Below, piece by piece: positions 1 to 35,062 of a stretch of DNA of 35,062 nt. This DNA comes from a virus (Duplodnaviria > Heunggongvirae > Uroviricota > Caudoviricetes). The translations under genes and the position numbers were made by a program. Under the pieces are notes generated by a model that worked only from the letters and a program-made list of their open reading frames with translations, was not told the origin of the DNA and ran no database searches. The first letter of the stretch is position 1. Each line of letters begins with the position of its first letter. The DNA lies in IMG/VR virus record IMGVR_UViG_2548876964_000015, positions 1 through 35,062 of that record. One strand, given 5' to 3'.

Positions 1-5
1 CAAGT

Positions 6-80
6 GATGGTGTAGCTCAGCGGTAGAGCAGTTGGCTGTTAACCAACTGGTCGGTAGTTCGAATCCACCCACCATCGCCA
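6..80 (+). tRNA. tRNA-Asn (anticodon GTT)
   Basis: Cloverleaf read by eye: acceptor 6-12 GATGGTG pairs with 70-76 CACCATC; D-stem GCTC/GAGC; anticodon stem GTTGG/CCAAC with loop CTGTTAA (GTT at 38-40); T-loop TTCGAAT; CCA encoded at 78-80. One A-C mismatch in the T-stem. Confidence 0.75.
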
Positions 81-85
81 CTTTA

Positions 86-172
86 GGGGAGTTAGTCCGT
101 AGGGGTAGCGGGGTAGACTGTAAATCTACTGTCATTGCGACTCGGGTGGTTCGACTCCATCACTCCCCACCA
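86..172 (+). tRNA. Type-II (long variable arm) tRNA-like gene, anticodon GTA (Tyr-like); D-arm irregular
   Basis: Acceptor 86-92 GGGGAGT pairs with 162-168 ACTCCCC; perfect anticodon stem GTAGA/TCTAC with loop CTGTAAA (GTA at 120-122); 15-nt variable arm; T-loop TTCGACT; CCA at 170-172. The D-arm does not fold canonically, so it may be a pseudo-tRNA. Confidence 0.5.
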
Positions 173-176
173 CATT

Positions 177-252
177 GCCGATTTAGCTCAGTTGGTAGAG
201 CAGTCGCTTTGTAAGCGAATGGTCAGCGGTTCGATCCCGTTAATCGGCACCA
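177..252 (+). tRNA. tRNA-Thr (anticodon TGT)
   Basis: Acceptor 177-183 GCCGATT pairs with 242-248 AATCGGC; D-stem GCTC/GAGC; anticodon loop TTTGTAA (TGT at 210-212); T-loop GTTCGATCC region; CCA at 250-252. Confidence 0.8.
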
Positions 253-257
253 ACATA

Positions 258-330
258 ACAGGTAAGAGCATTCTCCCTTATGGGGCCTGGCTTAAATGCA
301 TCGAGTGCTCTTACCGTTGTGATGAAGTGC
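258..330. repeat. Hairpin unit copy 1 (10-bp stem GGTAAGAGCA / TGCTCTTACC, 261-270 with 306-315)
   Basis: Shares the 20-nt block ACAGGTAAGAGCATTCTCC and the tail CCGTTGTGATGAAGTGC with the copy at 899-990. Confidence 0.45.
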
Positions 331-599
331 AGATCTTAGAAGCAACCAGAAGATAAGCATCTGGCTTCACAACATAAACCGCAGGAACGACCAATAAACG
401 GTAGTCCGTATGGAGAACACCCCGTTGAGGAAGAGGCCTGGCCGGAACCGTAACCGGCGACTGGTAATGTGTGTAAATGGAGCGAAATATGTGGGCGTTT
501 AACGGGATACGGGTTGTAACAGCGATTATTAACGGCGAACTTAAGTATTCACGTTTCGAGACAAATGAACGTGATGGGAAATGTATTGGTGTGCGGTTA

Positions 600-725
600 G
601 TAAGAGAATACGCATAACAACTACAACGTTGAGAACACTGGCGTAACGGGGTCATATCCCAATCTACGAATAAATGTTGCGTTGCCGCGTGACAACCAGT
701 GTTCTCAACATTGTGGTGAATGCAC
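600..725. repeat. Hairpin unit copy 2 (14-bp perfect stem GTTGAGAACACTGG / CCAGTGTTCTCAAC, 628-641 with 686-699)
   Basis: Loop carries GTAACGGGGTCATATCCCAATCTAC, also present at 922-946; tail CATTGTGGTGAATGCAC resembles the tails of copies 1 and 3. Confidence 0.45.
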
Positions 726-898
726 AGGCTGATGTGCCGCAACTACAGTAGTGCGCGCTTTGCGGGGCTTGCTACAACCCTGTGTCGGAGTTCAGCACCG
801 ACCATCACAGTTTGATTCTCTGGCATGAGCATAACGCTGAAATAAGTCCAGTCTGGTGCGGTCTGATCACCCGCCGTTAGCTCCACGAAACGGAGCAC

Positions 899-990
899 GT
901 AACAGGTAAGAGCATTCTCCTGTAACGGGTTCATATCCCAATCTACAGGTCCACCAAGAATGCTCTTTCCGTTGCGGTGAATGCGGCTAA
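899..990. repeat. Hairpin unit copy 3 (11-bp stem AAGAGCATTCT / AGAATGCTCTT, 908-918 with 957-967)
   Basis: Same 5-prime block as copy 1 and same loop block as copy 2; tail CCGTTGCGGTGAATGCGG. Confidence 0.45.
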
Positions 991-1125
991 GCGCACGCGG
1001 GGAAATGGTTATATCTGTCCATTATTTCTCCTTGTTTCCACGTCCACGGTGGATAACCAGCCAAAGGACACCGGGAGGAACCCGGCACCGCAGCTTTTTT
1101 ATTCGTTAAATAATGGAGTGAGAGG

Positions 1126-1344
1126 ATGCAGAACAATCCGAACAAATGTCGAACGCTATGGGTGCGGTTATATATTTATGCCGTCCTCTGTTTGATTGTG
1201 TCACTGGTTCTGTATGTTTGGCTTTTGCCAAATATGATCTCATCTAACAGCACAATACTTGTATTGTTGGGAGTCCTTCTCGCGCTCATTTACCCGGCTT
1301 TCGCAGTAGTCTTTTTTCGTGAAAAAAACCAGGAAATTAATTAA
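1126..1344 (+). CDS. Small hydrophobic membrane protein (72 aa, two predicted helices)
   Basis: ATG preceded by GAGAGG; strongly hydrophobic sequence; stop overlaps the next start (TAATG), implying translational coupling. Confidence 0.55.
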   Translation: MQNNPNKCRTLWVRLYIYAVLCLIVSLVLYVWLLPNMISSNSTILVLLGVLLALIYPAFAVVFFREKNQEIN

Positions 1345-2171
1345 TGAAAAAAACGTTGATTAGTGCAGCGATTATTTTGGGTTCTTTATGTCTGACCGGA
1401 TGCGATCGGGTAGAGCCAGGTAACGTAGGGATCAAAGTAAATAAGCTGGGGGATGATAAAGGTATCGGTGAAGTAGTTGGCGTTGGTCGCTACTGGACAG
1501 GCTTGAATACTGAAGTTTATATCTTCCCGACCTTTAAGCAAATGAAGACATACGATGAGCCGTTCAGCTTCCAGATGAGCGACGGAACAACCATTGGTTA
1601 CCACATCGGCGTAGCCTACAAGGTTGATCCAGCAAAAGTCACAACGGTATTTCAGACCTATCGCAAAGGTGTAGATGATATTACTGATACCGATCTACGC
1701 CAGAAGGTTGCAGATGCTCTGAACCGATTAGCCAGCAAAATGACCACCGACAAATTTATCGACGGTGGCAAATCTGAATTGCTTGATGCAGCCCTTAAAG
1801 ACATTCAGGAAGAAATGACGCCAATCGGCATTCAGGTGATGAGCCTCTCTTATGTAGGTAAGCCAGAATACCCGCCAACAGTTATTGACAGTATTAACGC
1901 CAAAGTCACGGCAAACCAAAAAACCCTGCAACGCGAGCAAGAGGTCAAACAACGTGAAGCAGAGGCCAACATGCTGCGCGCGGAAGCTGCCGGACAGGCT
2001 GATGCTATTCGCACAAAAGCCCAGGCCGAAGCTGATGCCATTCGTTTACGTGGTGAAGCTCTGCGCCAGAACCCCGGTGTTATGGACTTGGAAGCGATCA
2101 ACAAATGGAACGGTACATTACCGCAGTATATGACCAGTAATACCGCTGTTCCGTTTGTTCCGGTGAAATAA
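1344..2171 (+). CDS. SPFH/band-7 (stomatin-prohibitin-like) lipoprotein
   Basis: N-terminal signal peptide with lipobox LTGC; band-7-like core; C-terminal Ala/Glu/Gln-rich coiled coil. Domain call by eye only. Confidence 0.7.
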   Translation: MKKTLISAAIILGSLCLTGCDRVEPGNVGIKVNKLGDDKGIGEVVGVGRYWTGLNTEVYIFPTFKQMKTYDEPFSFQMSDGTTIGYHIGVAYKVDPAKVTTVFQTYRKGVDDITDTDLRQKVADALNRLASKMTTDKFIDGGKSELLDAALKDIQEEMTPIGIQVMSLSYVGKPEYPPTVIDSINAKVTANQKTLQREQEVKQREAEANMLRAEAAGQADAIRTKAQAEADAIRLRGEALRQNPGVMDLEAINKWNGTLPQYMTSNTAVPFVPVK

Positions 2172-2198
2172 AAGCGTAAGCAAAATTGGCAGTAATCC

Positions 2199-2274
2199 GG
2201 CCCTTTAGCTCAGTGGTTAGAGCTGGCGACTTATAATCGCACGGTCACCGGTTCAAGTCCGGTAGGGGCCACCA
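2199..2274 (+). tRNA. tRNA-Ile-like (anticodon TAT)
   Basis: Acceptor 2199-2205 GGCCCTT pairs with 2264-2270 AGGGGCC (one G-T); D-stem GCTC/GAGC; anticodon loop CTTATAA (TAT at 2232-2234); perfect T-stem ACCGG/CCGGT; CCA at 2272-2274. Confidence 0.75.
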
Positions 2275-2548
2275 TATTTGGTTGTAACACGGCGTCTGGC
2301 ACATGCGTCGTTAGCGGTCTGGTGACGTTAAAGGGGTAACCTTTCCCCTAGCTCAGGCAACAAACCAGGTAGCCGGAATGTGCAAGCCCCGTTCATAGCG
2401 TCGGACTGCGGATTCACCATCCTGGCGATTCGGTGTGACAGCCGGGAAGAGTCCGGCGCATTAATCCTGATTTTCTGGTGATGACTCATATCGTTAGGAG
2501 TGATTTGAGTATGCCGATTATATCTGACATTCAGCACGCCTGGGTGGA

Positions 2549-3924
2549 GTGCTAATGTCTGCATCCCCTCTTGAATCCATGCCAAATTCCCTTAGTGCAG
2601 AACAAGCTGTACTTGGTGGCTTAATGCTTGATAACTGCCGCTGGGATGAAGTTGCAGATCGTATAGTTGCTGATGATTTTTATACCAGTGCTCATCGTGA
2701 AATTTTCAGTGAGATGGAGAGGTTATTAAGTCATGGCAAACCGATTGATTTGATAACACTTGCTGAAGCACTTGAACAGAACGGTAAATTAGAACAGAAC
2801 GCGCCGGTGGTTTTGCGTACCTTGCGGAGATGTCAAAGAACACGCCCAGCGCGGCAAATATTTGTGCTTATGCGGATATCGTTCGTGAACGCGCGGTTGT
2901 TCGTGAAATGATTTCCGTCGCAAATGAAATAGCTGAAGCTGGATATGCGCAGGATGGCAGGGGCAGCAATGAATTGCTGGATATGGCCGAGCGCCGCGTT
3001 TTTGAAATAGCTGAAAAACGACAAAAGAGCGGTAGTGGTCCAAAAGATATCGCCAGCATTCTCGATGCAACGGTATCTCGCATAGAAGAGTTGTTTCAGC
3101 GACCGCATGATGGTGTAACGGGGCTTGATACCGGATTTACCGATCTCAATAAGAAGACGGCAGGACTTCAGGCGTCCGATCTCATTATTGTCGCCGCCCG
3201 CCCATCGATGGGGAAGACTACGTTTGCGATGAATCTCGTCGAAAATGCCGCAGTCCGTAACGATAAGCCCGTATTGGTTTTTAGCCTTGAGATGCCGAGC
3301 CACCAACTGATGATGCGCTCACTGGCTTCTCTTGCACGCGTTGATCAGACTCGTATTCGAACAGGGCAACTTAACGACGAGGATTGGGCGCGGGTTTCTG
3401 GCGCAATGGGGATTCTGTTGGACAAGCAGAATATTTTTATTGATGACTCAAGCGCCCTGACACCTACAGAGCTTCGTTCCCGCGCTCGTCGTGTTTATAA
3501 AGAAAATGGTGGTTTGAGCATGATTATGATCGACTACCTGCAACTTATGCGCGTCCCCGAGCTGCAAGATAACCGAACGCTGGAAATTGCCGAGATTTCT
3601 CGCTCACTGAAGGCTTTGGCGAAGGAATTACAAGTACCGGTGGTGGCATTGTCACAACTTAATCGATCGCTTGAACAGCGTGCGGACAAACGACCGGTAA
3701 ATTCAGATTTACGTGAATCAGGAGCAATTGAGCAGGACGCAGACCTGATCATGTTTCTGTATCGCGACGAAGTTTATCACCCGGATAGCGAAATGAAGGG
3801 CATTGCCGAGGTAATTATCGGAAAGCAACGAAATGGCCCAATTGGCACGGTGAGATTGGCTTTTAACGGCCAATACTCACGGTTTGATAACTATGCTGGT
3901 GCTGACTGGCAAGAGGATTATTAA
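2549..3924 (+). pseudogene. ban: DnaB-family replicative helicase (P1 ban-like) split by a frameshift near 2798-2810
   Basis: ORF 2549..2911 encodes the DnaB N-terminal domain (AEQAVLGGLMLDN...IDLITLAEALEQNGKLEQ); ORF 2830..3924 in the next frame encodes the rest (Walker A ARPSMGKTT, C-terminal motifs). The conserved GGFAYLAEMSKNTPSAAN is only in frame after a shift around GAACGCGCCGGTGG. Confidence 0.8.
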
Positions 3925-4922
3925 TGCAATGGAATGAGGAAAAGCCGATGAACATCCTGATCATTGGGAGAAAATTTGAAGCTATCAGTGATGTGAAAAC
4001 ATATACGGAAATGTGGGCTTACAACCTGGCCTGCGCCTTTAGTGAGGCAGGGGTAACATTGCAATACCATCGTCCATATTCCCCTGGCGTCGAAAGCCCG
4101 GAGGATTATGTTGAAGCTGTGTTGACTGCTGCGACCGCATGTTCTGCGAAGGCCATTTTGGCACCAGGATTGAGGTATTTTACTACGGTACCCAGGGAAA
4201 TAGGCATGCAACTGTGTCGCCGATTCTCTGGATGGGTAGCCCAGGTATATGACGGTTCTATGCTGGATTCGGCACCAGTCGATATTACTTTTACTGTCCG
4301 CGATGATACCTGGCGGTACCTGGATAATCCCGGCAGGTTAGAGCGTCATAATCGCTTTAACAAACATGTTGGATGGGCAGCGAATCAGGAACTGTTCCAT
4401 CTGGAAACCAAGACAGACGATGTTCTGCGTATTTTTGTAGACCACGCTGCATTTGATGTTAGTGGGTTTGATCACTCCTTAAGTATCCTTATGAACCTTC
4501 AGCGTCTGACCGTTCCGTATGAGGCCAGAACGTTGACCGATGACGGATTGGTTACCATTGATCCGGGGAATATTTCGGTAACTCCATACAGGCGGACGCC
4601 GGTGCCAGCAACCGAATTTGCAGCTGAATTGCGTAAGAGTGACGTTTTTATCGTTACGCATCCCGAAAGCCTTGGATTAACTGTACTTGAGGCGGCAATG
4701 TGCGGGGCGTTGGTATTAACGCCTCCCGATTGCCTTCCGCCAGATCGCCTGGCTTTGGTGAACCATATGGTTATCAAGTCGCGGATTGATTGGGATGAGG
4801 TTATTGCTCGCGTTGATCGCGTGAAAAATGCTGAAAAGGTCCAGTGTCACACCTGGTCGGCAATTGCGGAAAAGATGCTTGAGACGTTTATCACGCAGAA
4901 ACCGTCGCGCGGTAATGATTGA
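3924..4922 (+). CDS. Hypothetical protein with glycosyltransferase-like (GT-B) C-terminal motif
   Basis: ATG overlaps the ban stop (TAATG); motif THPESLGLTVLEAAMCGALVL resembles the E-x7-E region of GT1/GT4 enzymes. Function is inferred. Confidence 0.5.
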   Translation: MQWNEEKPMNILIIGRKFEAISDVKTYTEMWAYNLACAFSEAGVTLQYHRPYSPGVESPEDYVEAVLTAATACSAKAILAPGLRYFTTVPREIGMQLCRRFSGWVAQVYDGSMLDSAPVDITFTVRDDTWRYLDNPGRLERHNRFNKHVGWAANQELFHLETKTDDVLRIFVDHAAFDVSGFDHSLSILMNLQRLTVPYEARTLTDDGLVTIDPGNISVTPYRRTPVPATEFAAELRKSDVFIVTHPESLGLTVLEAAMCGALVLTPPDCLPPDRLALVNHMVIKSRIDWDEVIARVDRVKNAEKVQCHTWSAIAEKMLETFITQKPSRGND

Positions 4923-4968
4923 TTCTATTCATATGATTGCGATTGTATTGATTTTTACGATACCGCTT

Positions 4969-5001
4969 ATTGCTCTAATAAATTTGATTTATTAGAGCAA
5001 A
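4969..5001. promoter_or_regulatory. Palindromic pair of C1-operator-like sites
   Basis: 4969-4985 ATTGCTCTAATAAATTT is a 17/17 match to the P1 C1 operator consensus as I recall it; an inverted 14/17 copy overlaps at 4985-5001, giving TTGCTCTAATAAAT-TTGA-TTTATTAGAGCAA. Confidence 0.7.
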
Positions 5002-5086
5002 TAAACTACCATCGAACGCCAGACTATTGATCTTCCTGTTGTTCAGGCTTATAGTTCCTACGTCGTAGTAAATTCTGCGACCGGGT

Positions 5087-5107
5087 TTGACAGCCTGAAT
5101 GTACATG
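5087..5107 (+). promoter_or_regulatory. Candidate antisense target pair a1/b1 (TTGACAG 5087-5093, GTACATG 5101-5107)
   Basis: Exact reverse complements of the two 7-mers inside the c4-like RNA (CTGTCAA 5225-5231, CATGTAC 5212-5218). Confidence 0.5.
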
Positions 5108-5113
5108 CGGACA

Positions 5114-5146
5114 ACCGCAGATATCCGATATTGCGGTATTTTTGTG
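5114..5146 (+). terminator. Hairpin followed by T-tract (terminator- or attenuator-like)
   Basis: ACCGCAGATAT-CCG-ATATTGCGGT stem with one bulge, then ATTTTTGTG. Confidence 0.35.
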
Positions 5147-5174
5147 TCCGTAAACCACGTTACGCCCGAATTAT

Positions 5175-5251
5175 GGTGGGGCGTGATGGGGAGGCTTCGG
5201 CCTGCTGGTTTCATGTACGCCAGTCTGTCAACCCCGTCACGTCCTGCCACC
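5175..5251 (+). ncRNA. c4: c4-like antisense repressor RNA candidate (77 nt)
   Basis: 5-prime GGTGGGGCGTGATGGGG can pair over about 17 bp (with G-U pairs) with 3-prime CCCCGTCACGTCCTGCC, leaving a 3-prime ACC tail; internal region exposes CATGTAC and CTGTCAA, complementary to repeats upstream (5087-5107) and downstream (5255-5290, the latter overlapping the icd ribosome-binding site). Confidence 0.55.
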
Positions 5252-5254
5252 TGT

Positions 5255-5290
5255 TTGACAGCGGGTAGCAGGTTGTTAAACCTGTACATG
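5255..5290 (+). promoter_or_regulatory. Candidate antisense target pair a2/b2 (TTGACAG 5255-5261, GTACATG 5284-5290)
   Basis: b2 lies immediately 5-prime of the GAGG Shine-Dalgarno of the 73-aa ORF starting at 5302. Confidence 0.5.
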
Positions 5291-5301
5291 AGGCCGTAAC
5301 T

Positions 5302-5523
5302 ATGGTTAATGCCAATCCTTGCGCACGCCCTGAATTTATCTGGCGCTTTTACTCCTGCCAGAAACGTCACTATCACTTCGTTATTGCACCGACAGAAGAT
5401 GAGGCTCGCTCTCAGCTTCCGGATGCACCCTGTATTTTCTCTGCCCGCTTTTCCACTTATTCACGCAATTCTCTCAGTTACTGGTGCCTCCCTGTTAACG
5501 CTTCTGCTCAGGAGGGACTATGA
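5302..5523 (+). CDS. icd: Small protein (73 aa) translationally coupled to the antirepressor; icd-like by position
   Basis: GAGG about 10 nt upstream of ATG; stop overlaps the ant ATG (ATGA). Position between c4-like RNA and ant matches the P1 immI layout as I recall it. Confidence 0.5.
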   Translation: MVNANPCARPEFIWRFYSCQKRHYHFVIAPTEDEARSQLPDAPCIFSARFSTYSRNSLSYWCLPVNASAQEGL

Positions 5524-6632
5524 GAACATCGTTAGTTACCCGTGAAGAGATGATCGAGGCAATTGAACAGCACACTGCCTGTATCAGTACCAGGGATATA
5601 CCTGGCGTTATTGCCAACTACTTCATGATCACCAAACAACTTTACCGGAGAAAGGACAAGAACGCGGTTCACCGTATCCTGTTGTCTGATATCCGCGAAT
5701 ACCTGCTCGAACAGGGTCATCTGAATTACGCAACCGTCGCAGCCGAAGCACGCAAGGAGGCACACAGAATGAAAGCAAATAACGTTAAATTAGAAAAAAT
5801 TCATGCACCTTCAGTTCAGGAATCGGAGCTGGTGGTTGTTCAGAATCAGTCTGATGAAATTCCCGTTCTGGAATGGCAGGGAGTACGTGTCGTGACAACC
5901 GAAACTCTTGCTAGAGGGTATGGGGTCGATGAAGCCAATATTCGCAACAATTTGTCTCGCAACCTTGACCGCTTTGAAGAAGGTAAGCATTACTTTCTTC
6001 TAACTGCTTTAAAATTAAGAGAATTTAAGAACAGAGTAACCGGAAGTTACTCTGTTGGTAAGAACGCCAGAAGCCTTACACTCTGGACAGAGCGCGGCGC
6101 TGCACGCATGTCTAAGATCGTGGACACAAATGAAGCATGGGCATTCTTTGAAAAACTGGAAGACAGCTACTTCCGGCAAAAAGAACAGCAACCGGTTGCA
6201 ATCCCCCAGACGCTTCCAGAAGCTCTGCGCCTGGCTGCCGAACTGGCTGAACAAAAGCAACTTCTGGAACAGAAAGCCCACCAGCTAAATCAGCAGCTGG
6301 TGGCCGCCGCTCCTAAGGTCGATTTTGCCGACCGGGTATCAGTAGCTAAAGGGATCCTGATTGGGAATTTTGCAAAGGTTGTTGGACTTAAGCAAAACGC
6401 GCTGTTTGCCTGGTTACGGGAGAACGGCATCCTGATAGCGTCCGGCGGACGTAAAAATGTGCCGTTTCAGCAGTACATAAACGCCGGATATTTCACGGTG
6501 AAAGAAGTGGTGCTGGATGATGAAGATGGCTACCAGATACGGTTGACGCCTCAATTAACGGGTAAAGGCCAGCAGTGGTTGACGCGTAAACTGCTCGATG
6601 CTGGCTTGTTAAAACCGGTGGCGGCTGAATAA
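5520..6632 (+). CDS. ant: Antirepressor (ORF6N/Bro-N-like middle domain plus KilA-C/Ant C-terminal domain)
   Basis: Strong SD GGAGGG; 370 aa; middle segment VLEWQGVRVVTTETLARGYGVD...FEEGKHYF and C-terminal DFADRVSVAKGILIGNFAKVVGLKQNALFAWLRENGIL are typical of phage antirepressors. Confidence 0.75.
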   Translation: MRTSLVTREEMIEAIEQHTACISTRDIPGVIANYFMITKQLYRRKDKNAVHRILLSDIREYLLEQGHLNYATVAAEARKEAHRMKANNVKLEKIHAPSVQESELVVVQNQSDEIPVLEWQGVRVVTTETLARGYGVDEANIRNNLSRNLDRFEEGKHYFLLTALKLREFKNRVTGSYSVGKNARSLTLWTERGAARMSKIVDTNEAWAFFEKLEDSYFRQKEQQPVAIPQTLPEALRLAAELAEQKQLLEQKAHQLNQQLVAAAPKVDFADRVSVAKGILIGNFAKVVGLKQNALFAWLRENGILIASGGRKNVPFQQYINAGYFTVKEVVLDDEDGYQIRLTPQLTGKGQQWLTRKLLDAGLLKPVAAE

Positions 6633-6639
6633 TGGAAGA

Positions 6640-6664
6640 ATGCCCGGTTGATGCCGGGCATAAT
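6640..6664. terminator. Bidirectional hairpin terminator between convergent ant and c1
   Basis: ATGCCCGG-TTGATG-CCGGGCAT followed by AATTTATT. Confidence 0.5.
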
Positions 6665-7516
6665 TTATTGCGCGCTTTCGGGGTTGTCGTTTACTGGCTG
6701 CCCCTTCTTGGTTTTACGGCTGCGCGCAACTGATGCGGCTGACTTAACCTTTTTCTCTTCGCGAGTGATGGCAATTTGTTTTTTTACATTTTCAATATCT
6801 GCCAGGCGATATATTTTTGCCTGCGGCCAGCGGTCGCAGATGATCGGTTCTATAGAGTCATAAAGGCTAAATTTTGCTTTCTCGAATTCACCGTTGATGA
6901 TGATTCCATCACGGAGAGTTTCATCGCAGATAAACACACCACACAGCGGCACATGGTAACTAACTGATTTACCATCATTGTAGTTAGGGCTACTGGAAAT
7001 GTAATGGACGCGCAGCATTGTTTCGCTAAAGCCGTGTACACGCATACGGAATTTTTCATCCTCCGGGTACTGCTTCATTAGCTCTTTTGTTGCTTCCAGG
7101 TTCTCTATGTATTTCGCACTGTGCTCATTGATCCCCGCGCTTTTCTGGATGCGAATGTCCTTATCAATCAGATGAATAATGCGGCCAGCGGTCATGTTGA
7201 CGCTGTTCACAGCTTCTGTCTGATAAGTTGTAACCTTACGCACACCGCGAAGGATGTTAGGCACTGGATATAAAATAGTCTTTGGGATATTGAGGTCTGG
7301 GTACTGTTCCAGTTCCCGCGCCATTAAAGTCCATTTATCAATTTCAGCCTGAATGCTGTCCGTTTCTTTGAACGGCAGAACGACAACCGGGCGTACAGGA
7401 CGACCGTCGCTGGCGGCATCAACGTGTTGGGCGCGTGCAACAGCTTTTTTTAGAAAGAGATCCCTGAAGCTGACGAACTCCTGGTACAGTTGTTCGCCGT
7501 AGACATAATTTATCAT
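6665..7516 (-). CDS. c1: C1 repressor of lysis (immC)
   Basis: 283-aa protein beginning MINYVYGEQLYQEFVSFRDLFLKK, matching my memory of P1 C1 over its length; strong SD GGAGGAGGA upstream. Confidence 0.9.
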   Translation of the reverse strand: MINYVYGEQLYQEFVSFRDLFLKKAVARAQHVDAASDGRPVRPVVVLPFKETDSIQAEIDKWTLMARELEQYPDLNIPKTILYPVPNILRGVRKVTTYQTEAVNSVNMTAGRIIHLIDKDIRIQKSAGINEHSAKYIENLEATKELMKQYPEDEKFRMRVHGFSETMLRVHYISSSPNYNDGKSVSYHVPLCGVFICDETLRDGIIINGEFEKAKFSLYDSIEPIICDRWPQAKIYRLADIENVKKQIAITREEKKVKSAASVARSRKTKKGQPVNDNPESAQ

Positions 7517-34424: not shown

Positions 34425-34590
34425 CCTGTGCGAGATTTATTACGTAACTTCTGCGGATTTGCTGAGTAACAGGGAAAATCCGATACAACGGGTTAATGAA
34501 CGAGTCGCCATGCGTAACCATGACGTTGAAATGCCACAGCCGTTCTCCTTTACCCATATATTCAGTGGGTATGTACAACCATTCACTGTT

Positions 34591-35062
34591 TGAACCGCCC
34601 CGGAAATCCTGGAGACTAAACTCCCTGAGAAAAGAGGTAAAACAGGATGACTAAAAAATACTCGTTTTTCCCCCGAAGTCCGTCAGCGGGCGATTCGTAT
34701 GGTTCTGGAAAGTCAGGATGAATATGACTCACAGTGGGCGGCAATTTGTTCCATTGCCCCAAAGATTGGCTGTACGCCGGAGACTCTGCGTGTCTGGGTT
34801 CGCCAGCATGAGCGGGATACCGGGGGCGGTGATGGTGGGGCTCACCAGCGCTGAACGTCAGCGTCTGAAAGAGCTGGAACGTGAAAATCGTGAACTGCGC
34901 CGCAGTAACGATATCCTTCGCCAGGCTTCCGCTTATTTTGTCGAAGGCGGAGTTCGACCGCCTCTGGAAAAAAATGATGCCACTGCTGGATAAGCTGCGT
35001 GAGCAGGTACGGGGTCGGACCGGTTGCAGCGAACTGCATATTCGCCCCGTCAACGTATTACC
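34591..35062 (+). mobile_element. IS3-family insertion sequence, left end (runs off the window)
   Basis: Terminus TGAACCGCCCCGG at 34591; orfA-type HTH and leucine-zipper segments; A7 slippery run at 34968-34974; second-frame ORF starting [11 protein letters not shown] continues to the window edge. Confidence 0.7.
34647..34993 (+). pseudogene. IS3-family orfA interrupted by two single-base frameshifts
   Basis: ATG frame stops after 24 codons; HTH segment ([20 protein letters not shown]...) is in the +1 frame and the zipper segment ([33 protein letters not shown]) in the +2 frame. The shifts fall in an A6 run (34653-34658) and a G4 run near GGTGGGGCT. Confidence 0.6.

What the first reader, a model, noticed from the sequence alone, without database searches (positions are those of the whole stretch)
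2788..2832. Replicative helicase gene ban is interrupted by a frameshift outside any homopolymer
The DnaB-like N-terminal domain and the rest of the protein are in different frames; the conserved GGFAYLAEMSKNTPSAAN is only in frame after a shift near GAACGCGCCGGTGG. Either ban is a genuine pseudogene (the element then depends on host DnaB) or this is an assembly error. No C1 operator is visible within 270 bp upstream of ban either.
Basis: seen in the sequence. Interest (0 to 1): 0.4.

Follow-up and report, generated by a model that had tools for sequence, protein, structure and literature searches.

The report
Five-base duplication breaks P1 ban
The phage-encoded helicase gene ban on this P1-like plasmid contig is knocked out by a private 5-base tandem duplication. 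This is an ordinary, probably recent loss of a dispensable accessory gene, or less likely a consensus error, and not a new biological feature.

Summary
The window is the whole 35,062-bp draft contig AICG01000087.1 (GCA_000446245.1), a P1-like phage-plasmid of the E. coli O111:H8 lineage.

**The lesion.** ban starts at ATG 2555. After codon 80 it carries a perfect 5-bp tandem duplication, AGAAC|AGAAC, at 2791-2800. Removing one copy restores a 455-codon ORF whose DNA is identical to ban of plasmid p08_4455-1.

**How rare it is.** The duplication is absent from about 450 E. coli records, 436 plasmids, 18 phages, GTDB representatives, IMG/VR and JGI metagenomes.

**Real or artefact.** Outside its last 470 bp (an IS1203 end with 9 one-base indels, mostly in homopolymer runs), the contig has no other base difference from p08_4455-1 over about 34.5 kb. 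A genuine recent mutation is therefore more likely (~0.7) than a consensus error (~0.25).

**Why it is tolerated.**
- ban is dispensable in P1.
- Other natural ban knock-outs exist: an E90 amber codon, a 1-bp deletion and a 5' deletion.
- The contig also lacks about 27 kb of tail, lpa and pac genes.

**The operator remark.** The missing C1 operator is not an anomaly. Oban lies about 3.2 kb upstream of ban, just beyond the contig start.

Ordinary finding, low interest.

The parts
2546..2549 (+). GGAG Shine-Dalgarno of ban, 5 nt before ATG 2555
   Evidence: Read from the sequence. Same position as the annotated P1 ban start.
2555..2794 (+). ban codons 1-80 in the native frame (first part of the DnaB N-terminal domain)
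   Evidence: Translation. Pfam PF00772, E 3.7e-24, profile positions 2-76 of 103. Identical to p08_4455-1.
2774..2783 (+). Upstream GAACAGAACG, which after the mutation forms a perfect 10-bp direct repeat with 2792-2801. Possible template for the insertion.
   Evidence: the repeat finder family D2. Present unchanged in the wild-type relatives.
2791..2800 (+). The lesion: perfect tandem duplication AGAAC AGAAC. Relatives carry one AGAAC.
   Evidence: Alignments. It is the only difference from p08_4455-1 in window 1-5406. Absent from all collections searched.
2795..2911 (+). Out-of-frame tail (38 codons, QNAPVV...LFVK) and premature stop TGA at 2909-2911
   Evidence: Translation. Called as a 118-aa gene in the source record.
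2801..3924 (+). ban codons 81-454 and the stop, in the -1 frame: end of the N-terminal domain, linker and RecA-like DnaB_C domain with Walker A SMGKT
   Evidence: Translation. Pfam PF03796, E 6.6e-108, 1-255 of 255. Residue-by-residue alignment of intact P1 Ban to E. coli DnaB 6bbm.
2830..2832 (+). First in-frame ATG of the downstream frame (Ban M91). GGAG is directly adjacent, which is poor spacing.
2908..2911 (+). ATGA: in-frame ATG (Ban M117) overlapping the premature TGA. A possible termination-reinitiation site that would give a 338-aa fragment lacking most of the N-terminal domain.
   Evidence: Sequence. The gene caller of the source record called 2908-3924.
3924..4922 (+). dbn. Its ATG overlaps the ban TAA (TAATG), so it may suffer polarity or loss of translational coupling.

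Best explanation
ban, the P1 DnaB-analogue helicase gene, carries a single, recent, genuine insertion of 5 bases after codon 80. It looks like a tandem duplication of AGAAC. It could also have arisen by a polymerase template switch onto the quasi-repeat GAACAGAACG 18 bp upstream. Ribosomes that start at ATG 2555 make a 118-residue product (80 native plus 38 nonsense residues) and stop at TGA 2909-2911, so no full-length hexameric helicase is made. At most, weak reinitiation at the overlapping ATG 2908 yields a 338-aa fragment without most of the N-terminal domain, which by analogy with E. coli DnaB fragments should lack helicase function. The loss is tolerated for two reasons. ban is repressed in the prophage by C1 at the far-upstream Oban operator. 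ban is also dispensable for P1 plasmid maintenance and for lytic growth when host DnaB is present. The carrier plasmid seems already defective as a phage, since about 27 kb with baseplate/tail genes, lpa and pacAB is missing, so selection on lytic-cycle genes is relaxed. Shown: the lesion, its uniqueness, the intact state in relatives, the domain split, and the position of the operator in relatives. Inferred: that it is real rather than a consensus error, how the mutation arose, the lack of function of the fragments, and neutrality.
For: The lesion is mapped to the base. With one AGAAC removed, window 1-5406 is identical to p08_4455-1, and 5459-34590 is identical too. The contig consensus is therefore essentially error-free in unique sequence and the gene shows no further decay, which points to a recent event. 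The insertion is not in a homopolymer, whereas the contig's visible read-type errors, 9 one-base indels at 34633-35043, lie mostly in or next to short runs of the same base. The 10-bp direct repeat created by the insertion gives a templated route. ban is non-essential in P1 (CRISPRi EOP 1.2, scored NE, and NE in the literature; PMC10695390). Independent natural ban knock-outs exist: a 1-bp deletion at nt 564 in pCFSAN004178P_01, E90 GAG>TAG in SRR34635065 and a 5' 330-nt deletion in GCA_949767325.1. In complete E. coli genomes, 8 of 461 ban matches cover less than 80% of the gene, and 1 record in a spread sample of 60 has a span 2 nt short, which was not examined further. ant abuts c1, so about 27 kb carrying genes 5, 6, 24, 7, phd/doc, lpa and pacAB is missing relative to p08_4455-1. 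The same junction occurs in an independent assembly.
Against: There is no read-level evidence. The frameshift product is on record only in this one draft contig, and no Logan assembly of public reads carries it. The contig does contain uncorrected indel errors at its 3' end, so the assembly is not flawless. The allele is seen nowhere else, which fits a private mutation and an artefact equally well. The 27-kb 'deletion' could be a mis-join across a 258-bp stretch that is identical in both icd-ant copies.
Confidence: 0.7

Rival explanations
1. Consensus or assembly artefact: the strain has a normal ban, and the extra AGAAC was introduced during assembly or consensus calling of the draft genome.
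For: The source is a draft WGS contig whose last 470 bp carry 9 one-base indels and no substitutions against IS1203, which shows that read errors survive in places. The allele is unique among more than 900 related records and three large contig collections. No independent assembly carries the 118-aa product.
Against: The visible errors are single-base, mostly homopolymer, and confined to a multi-copy IS at the contig end. The ban site is unique sequence, 2.8 kb from the contig start, with no homopolymer, and lies within 34.5 kb that otherwise match an independent complete plasmid perfectly. A clean 5-bp tandem duplication is a typical replication error and not a typical platform error (general knowledge).
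Confidence: 0.25
2. Functional split or truncated helicase: the N-terminal 118-aa peptide, together with a C-terminal fragment made by reinitiation at the ATGA overlap (2908-2911), still supplies a Ban activity or modulates host DnaB by mixed oligomers.
For: The premature TGA overlaps an in-frame ATG and the gene caller called 2908-3924. The DnaB_C domain is complete in that ORF. Ban interacts with E. coli DnaB (title of Lemonnier et al. 2003, seen in a reference list; details from memory).
Against: The overlap exists by chance in every wild-type ban, because the ATG is Ban M117 and the TGA is merely out of frame. There is no Shine-Dalgarno sequence before ATG 2908. The split falls inside the globular N-terminal domain (Ban E80 = DnaB D98) and not at a domain boundary. 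From general knowledge, E. coli DnaB C-terminal fragments keep ATPase activity but not helicase or replication activity. No relative has this arrangement.
Confidence: 0.03
3. Programmed -1 ribosomal frameshift or other recoding restores full-length Ban.
For: A -1 shift anywhere in 2788-2908 would rejoin the frames.
Against: There is no X XXY YYZ heptamer in the overlap in the zero frame, and no XXXYYY in any frame. All relatives encode Ban in one frame, so no recoding signal has evolved here.
Confidence: 0.01

Closest known systems
Bacteriophage P1 ban (Ban, DnaB analogue; NC_005856 P1_gp077)
   Same: 98.2% nucleotide identity over the gene and flanks. Same start, same stop/start overlap with dbn, same tRNA-Ile immediately upstream. 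With the 5 bases removed it is a 455-codon ORF.
   Different: The 5-bp duplication after codon 80 splits the ORF. Upstream, an SPFH-domain gene and an extra tRNA-Tyr replace P1's plp/upl/tciABC.
ban of plasmid p08_4455-1, E. coli O111:H8 strain 08-4455 (NZ_CP077541.1, WP_001276599.1)
   Same: Identical DNA over window 1-5406 apart from the duplication. Shares the rare tRNA-Ile TAT anticodon.
   Different: It has an intact ban, an IS1203 in icd copy 1 and the 27-kb segment between the two icd-ant modules. It has no IS1203 at its coordinate 3792.
Other natural ban knock-outs in P1-like plasmids
   Same: Disruption of the same accessory gene: pCFSAN004178P_01 (G-run 1-bp deletion), SRR34635065 (E90 amber, 10 codons downstream of this lesion) and GCA_949767325.1 (5' deletion).
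   Different: They are independent events of different types. None shares the AGAAC duplication.
E. coli DnaB replicative helicase (PDB 6bbm and others)
   Same: Intact Ban aligns end to end with DnaB residues 24-470, E 6e-234. Same two-domain architecture.
   Different: Here the polypeptide is cut at the equivalent of DnaB D98, inside the N-terminal globular domain.

Membership tests
DnaB-family replicative helicase (Pfam PF00772 + PF03796) | N-terminal DnaB domain | tested here: inconclusive
   Present but truncated: profile positions 2-76 of 103 in the 118-aa product, against 2-103 in intact P1 Ban.
DnaB-family replicative helicase (Pfam PF00772 + PF03796) | Complete RecA-like DnaB_C domain with Walker A | tested here: met
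   PF03796 1-255 of 255, E 6.6e-108, in the ORF 2830-3924. SMGKT is present.
DnaB-family replicative helicase (Pfam PF00772 + PF03796) | Both domains on one polypeptide (single ORF of about 455 codons) | tested here: not met
   The frames differ by -1 after codon 80 and a premature TGA lies at 2909-2911. By descent this is a ban gene, but as sequenced it does not encode a DnaB-type helicase.
P1 ban operon (C1-controlled) | Synteny tRNA-Ile - ban - dbn, with overlapping ban stop and dbn start | tested here: met
   tRNA at 2199-2274, ban at 2555-3924, dbn at 3924-4922.
P1 ban operon (C1-controlled) | Bivalent C1 operator Oban overlapping the ban promoters, downstream of dmt | not testable with these tools
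   It lies outside the contig. In P1 it is 2.6 kb upstream of ban. In pF1273-3 and p08_4455-1 it is a perfect consensus site 650-677 bp before the position that corresponds to window base 1. None is found in window 1-4968.
Programmed -1 ribosomal frameshift (dnaX or IS3 type) | Slippery heptamer X XXY YYZ in the frame overlap | tested here: not met
   None in 2788-2911.
Programmed -1 ribosomal frameshift (dnaX or IS3 type) | Two-frame organisation conserved in relatives | tested here: not met
   All 454 E. coli records have the single-AGAAC form at this site, and all 18 phage records span 1506 bases against the 1511-base query, which fits a single ORF. Of the 436 plasmid records, 39 of the 40 listed have the 1506-base span and one is 1 bp shorter.
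Old, decaying pseudogene | Several disabling lesions or excess substitutions | tested here: not met
   There is a single lesion. The rest of the gene is base-identical to a functional-length allele, so the event is recent, or an artefact.

The most novel reading that the evidence does not exclude
The frameshifted allele is expressed as two translationally coupled pieces: a 118-aa N-peptide and a 338-aa C-fragment restarted at the ATGA overlap. The helicase core, lacking most of the N-terminal domain, then forms mixed oligomers with host DnaB and changes replication on induction, acting as a naturally occurring dominant modifier of DnaB.
Probability: 0.03. Interest if true: 0.4.

Novelty: already known. 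Interest (0 to 1): 0.12.

Why it matters
It matters little beyond annotation. The locus should be annotated as a ban pseudogene (frameshifted), not as two helicase-fragment genes. Together with the missing 27 kb of morphogenesis and packaging genes and the IS1203 insertion, it marks this O111:H8 P1-like plasmid as a probable decaying, non-inducible phage-plasmid. It adds one data point to the observation that ban is occasionally lost in nature. That fits ban being dispensable when host DnaB is available.

Tried and rejected
- **Same allele elsewhere.** Exact 28-mer scans of GTDB representative genomes, IMG/VR and JGI metagenomes found nothing. BLAST against phages, PLSDB plasmids and complete E. 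coli genomes found none with the duplication.
- **Independent assemblies of the same product.** The 118-aa product exists only in the source contig, and the 120-aa GTG-start version is not on record.
- **Look-ups of the 364- and 338-aa products**. These gave other lesions (E90 amber, 5' deletion), contig-end truncations (L010, L012) and one scaffold N-gap artefact (L015). None had the same allele.
- **Programmed frameshifting.** Rejected: no slippery site and no conservation.
- **Promoter or operator directly upstream of ban.** None was found. This is explained by the far-upstream Oban.
- **Literature.** The P1 genome paper (PMC523184) and Lemonnier 2003 (PMC165978) are not held. A search for the assembly accession in papers gave nothing, so the strain name and sequencing platform remain unknown.
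- **General low assembly quality as the explanation.** Rejected for unique sequence: there are 0 other differences in about 34.5 kb.

Full report
**What the window is.** The 35,062 bases are the complete draft contig AICG01000087.1 of NCBI assembly GCA_000446245.1. It is a segment of a P1-like phage-plasmid (Punavirus). The ban region is 98.2% identical to phage P1 and 99.5-99.7% identical to many E. coli plasmids. The closest complete relative is p08_4455-1 of E. coli O111:H8 strain 08-4455 (NZ_CP077541.1).
- Window 1-5406 equals its 44097-49497 except for five inserted bases.
- Window 5459-34590 equals its 76422-101761 plus 1-3792 with no difference at all.
- Window 34590-35062 is the left end of an IS1203.

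**The observation.**
- ban has a GGAG at 2546-2549 and starts at ATG 2555, as in P1.
- The native frame runs for 80 codons (...EALEQNGKLE). It then reads 38 out-of-frame codons and stops at TGA 2909-2911.
- The rest of Ban (RAGGFAYLAEMSKNTPSAAN ... QEDY) is in the -1 frame, open from 2788 to the TAA at 3922-3924.
- Alignment with P1 and CP027223 shows one cause: AAATT AGAAC GCGCC in the relatives is AAATT AGAAC AGAAC GCGCC here. This is a perfect 5-bp tandem duplication at 2791-2800.
- No homopolymer is involved. The nearest run is TTTT at 2811-2814.
- Deleting one copy gives a 455-codon ORF that is identical at DNA level to the ban of p08_4455-1.
- Pfam puts DnaB N-terminal profile positions 2-76 of 103 in the first ORF, and the whole DnaB_C domain, including Walker A SMGKT, in the second.
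- Against E. coli DnaB (PDB 6bbm) the break is at the equivalent of D98, inside the globular N-terminal domain.

**Is it found elsewhere?** No.
- All 454 E. coli complete-genome records that match a 101-base probe across the site span 96 bases, at no more than 95.0% identity, which is the single-AGAAC form.
- All 18 phage records span 1506 bases against the 1511-base query. Of the 436 plasmid records, 39 of the 40 listed span 1506 and one spans 1505.
- Exact 28-mer scans of GTDB representative genomes, IMG/VR and JGI metagenomes found nothing.
- The 118-aa frameshift product is on record only in the source contig.

**Real mutation or artefact?** This cannot be settled without reads, but the balance favours a real mutation.
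- *For a real mutation.* Apart from its last 470 bases, the contig has zero other base differences from an independently finished plasmid across about 34.5 kb, so the consensus in unique sequence is very clean. The errors that are visible are 8 one-base insertions and 1 deletion, with no substitutions, against IS1203 at 34633-35043. They lie mostly in or beside short runs of the same base and sit in a multi-copy element at the contig end. A clean 5-bp duplication in unique, non-homopolymer sequence is a different kind of event.
- *A plausible mutational route (inference).* The insertion makes GAACAGAACG at 2792-2801, an exact copy of 2774-2783 only 18 bp upstream. The wild type already has AGAACG at both places. 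A nascent strand ending in GAAC could mispair with the first GAAC of the upstream copy, copy AGAACG, and realign.
- *For an artefact.* This is a single draft contig, the allele is unique, and no independent assembly confirms it.
- *My estimate.* About 0.70 real and 0.25 artefact.

**Consequences.**
- No full-length Ban can be made.
- No -1 slippery heptamer lies in the frame overlap, and the one-frame organisation is universal in relatives, so programmed recoding is rejected.
- The premature TGA overlaps an in-frame ATG (ATGA at 2908-2911, Ban M117). The source record's gene caller called a 338-aa gene from it. Weak termination-reinitiation is conceivable, but the ATG has no Shine-Dalgarno sequence.
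- The resulting fragment would lack most of the N-terminal domain. From general knowledge, C-terminal fragments of E. coli DnaB keep ATPase activity but not helicase or replication activity.
- dbn starts on the ban stop codon (TAATG at 3922-3926), so it may lose translational coupling. dbn is also non-essential in P1.

**Why the loss is tolerable.**
- In the genome-wide P1 CRISPRi screen, ban had an efficiency of plating of 1.2 and was scored non-essential. The classical literature (D'Ari et al. 1975, cited there) agrees (PMC10695390).
[quoted passage not shown] 2003), so it duplicates a host function.
- Other natural knock-outs exist: a 1-bp deletion in a G run at ban nt 564 in pCFSAN004178P_01, an E90 GAG>TAG amber codon in a contig from SRR34635065, and loss of the first 330 nt in GCA_949767325.1.
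- Among 461 matches in complete E. coli genomes, 8 cover less than 80% of ban. In a spread sample of 60, one has a span 2 nt short, which I did not examine further. Disruption is therefore uncommon, a few per cent, but recurrent.

**The C1-operator remark.** No operator-like site (up to 3 mismatches to ATTGCTCTAATAAATTT) lies in window 1-4968, and no sigma-70-like promoter lies between the tRNA-Ile and ban. This is normal. P1's annotation places the bivalent operator Obanab (formerly Op72ab) and promoters P1ban/P2ban right after dmt, 2.6 kb upstream of ban, with the tRNA genes in between. In pF1273-3 and p08_4455-1 a perfect operator pair sits at the end of dmt. That is 650-677 bp before the position corresponding to window base 1, or about 3.2 kb upstream of ban. 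It is simply off the contig.

**Context: a decaying element.**
- In p08_4455-1 and pF1273-3, dbn is followed by an icd-ant module and then baseplate genes. A second icd-ant module lies between pacB and c1, about 27 kb further on.
- In the window, ant (5520-6632) directly abuts c1 (6665-7516, minus strand). The sequence is copy-1-like up to 5458, identical to both copies in 5459-5716, and copy-2-like afterwards.
- This is the product expected from homologous recombination between the two direct repeats. It would remove genes 5, 6, 24, 7, phd/doc, lpa, pacA and pacB. Alternatively it is a mis-join across the 258-bp shared stretch.
- An independent draft assembly of a different sub-lineage (GCA_020280785.1) has the same dbn-icd-ant-c1 junction with an intact ban.
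- An IS1203 also interrupts a lysis-gene remnant at the contig end.
- If the deletion is real, the plasmid can no longer make phage, and the ban lesion is one more step of decay under relaxed selection.

**Verdict.** The thing itself is a known gene with an ordinary, private disabling mutation, or less likely a consensus error. Novelty: already known. Interest: low.

Noticed in passing
window 2199-2274 (anticodon 2232-2234): The tRNA just upstream of ban has anticodon TAT. P1 and 534 of 536 matching E. coli records have CAT, the ileX-like tRNA-Ile2 that needs lysidine modification by TilS to read AUA (general knowledge). Only the two O111:H8 plasmids NZ_CP077541.1 and NZ_CP077546.1 share the C34>T change. 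It is absent from IMG/VR, GTDB representatives and JGI metagenomes. A UAU tRNA-Ile could read AUA without TilS (inference). This may be more interesting than the ban lesion.
   Followed up: partly
window 5302-7516 (crossover 5459-5716): ant directly abuts c1. The sequence is a recombinant of two direct icd-ant modules that lie about 27 kb apart in p08_4455-1. Genes 5, 6, 24, 7, phd/doc, lpa and pacAB are therefore missing, either by deletion or by an assembly mis-join across 258 identical bases. The same junction, with an intact ban, occurs in GCA_020280785.1 contig ABCWUP010000033.1 (L025).
   Followed up: partly
window 34590-35062: The contig ends in the left end of an IS1203 inserted at p08_4455-1 coordinate 3792, inside a lysis-gene pseudogene. 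Against IS1203 this stretch has 8 one-base insertions and 1 deletion, mostly in or beside short homopolymer runs, and no substitutions. That is a signature of uncorrected read errors at a repeat or contig end.
   Followed up: partly
window 1322-1328 and ORF 1126-1344: An A7 run is shared with p08_4455-1, where CP027223 and pF1273-3 have A6. It sets the reading frame at the end of a 72-aa hydrophobic ORF whose TAA overlaps the ATG of the SPFH/Band-7 gene (TAATG). The ORF is called in the source record's gene table but is not annotated in the RefSeq annotation of pF1273-3.
   Followed up: no
window 4969-5101: A perfect C1 operator (4969-4985) with an inverted partner (4985-5001) lies just downstream of dbn. 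It is followed by an Rfam c4-a1b1 match at 5049-5101. This is an immI-like (c4/icd/ant) immunity module placed after dbn, and the lineage carries further icd-ant copies elsewhere.
   Followed up: no
window 1-252: There are three consecutive tRNA genes (Asn GTT, Tyr GTA, Thr TGT) at the very start of the contig. P1 itself has only Asn and Thr here. An SPFH-domain gene (1344-2171) replaces P1's plp/upl/tciABC.
   Followed up: no
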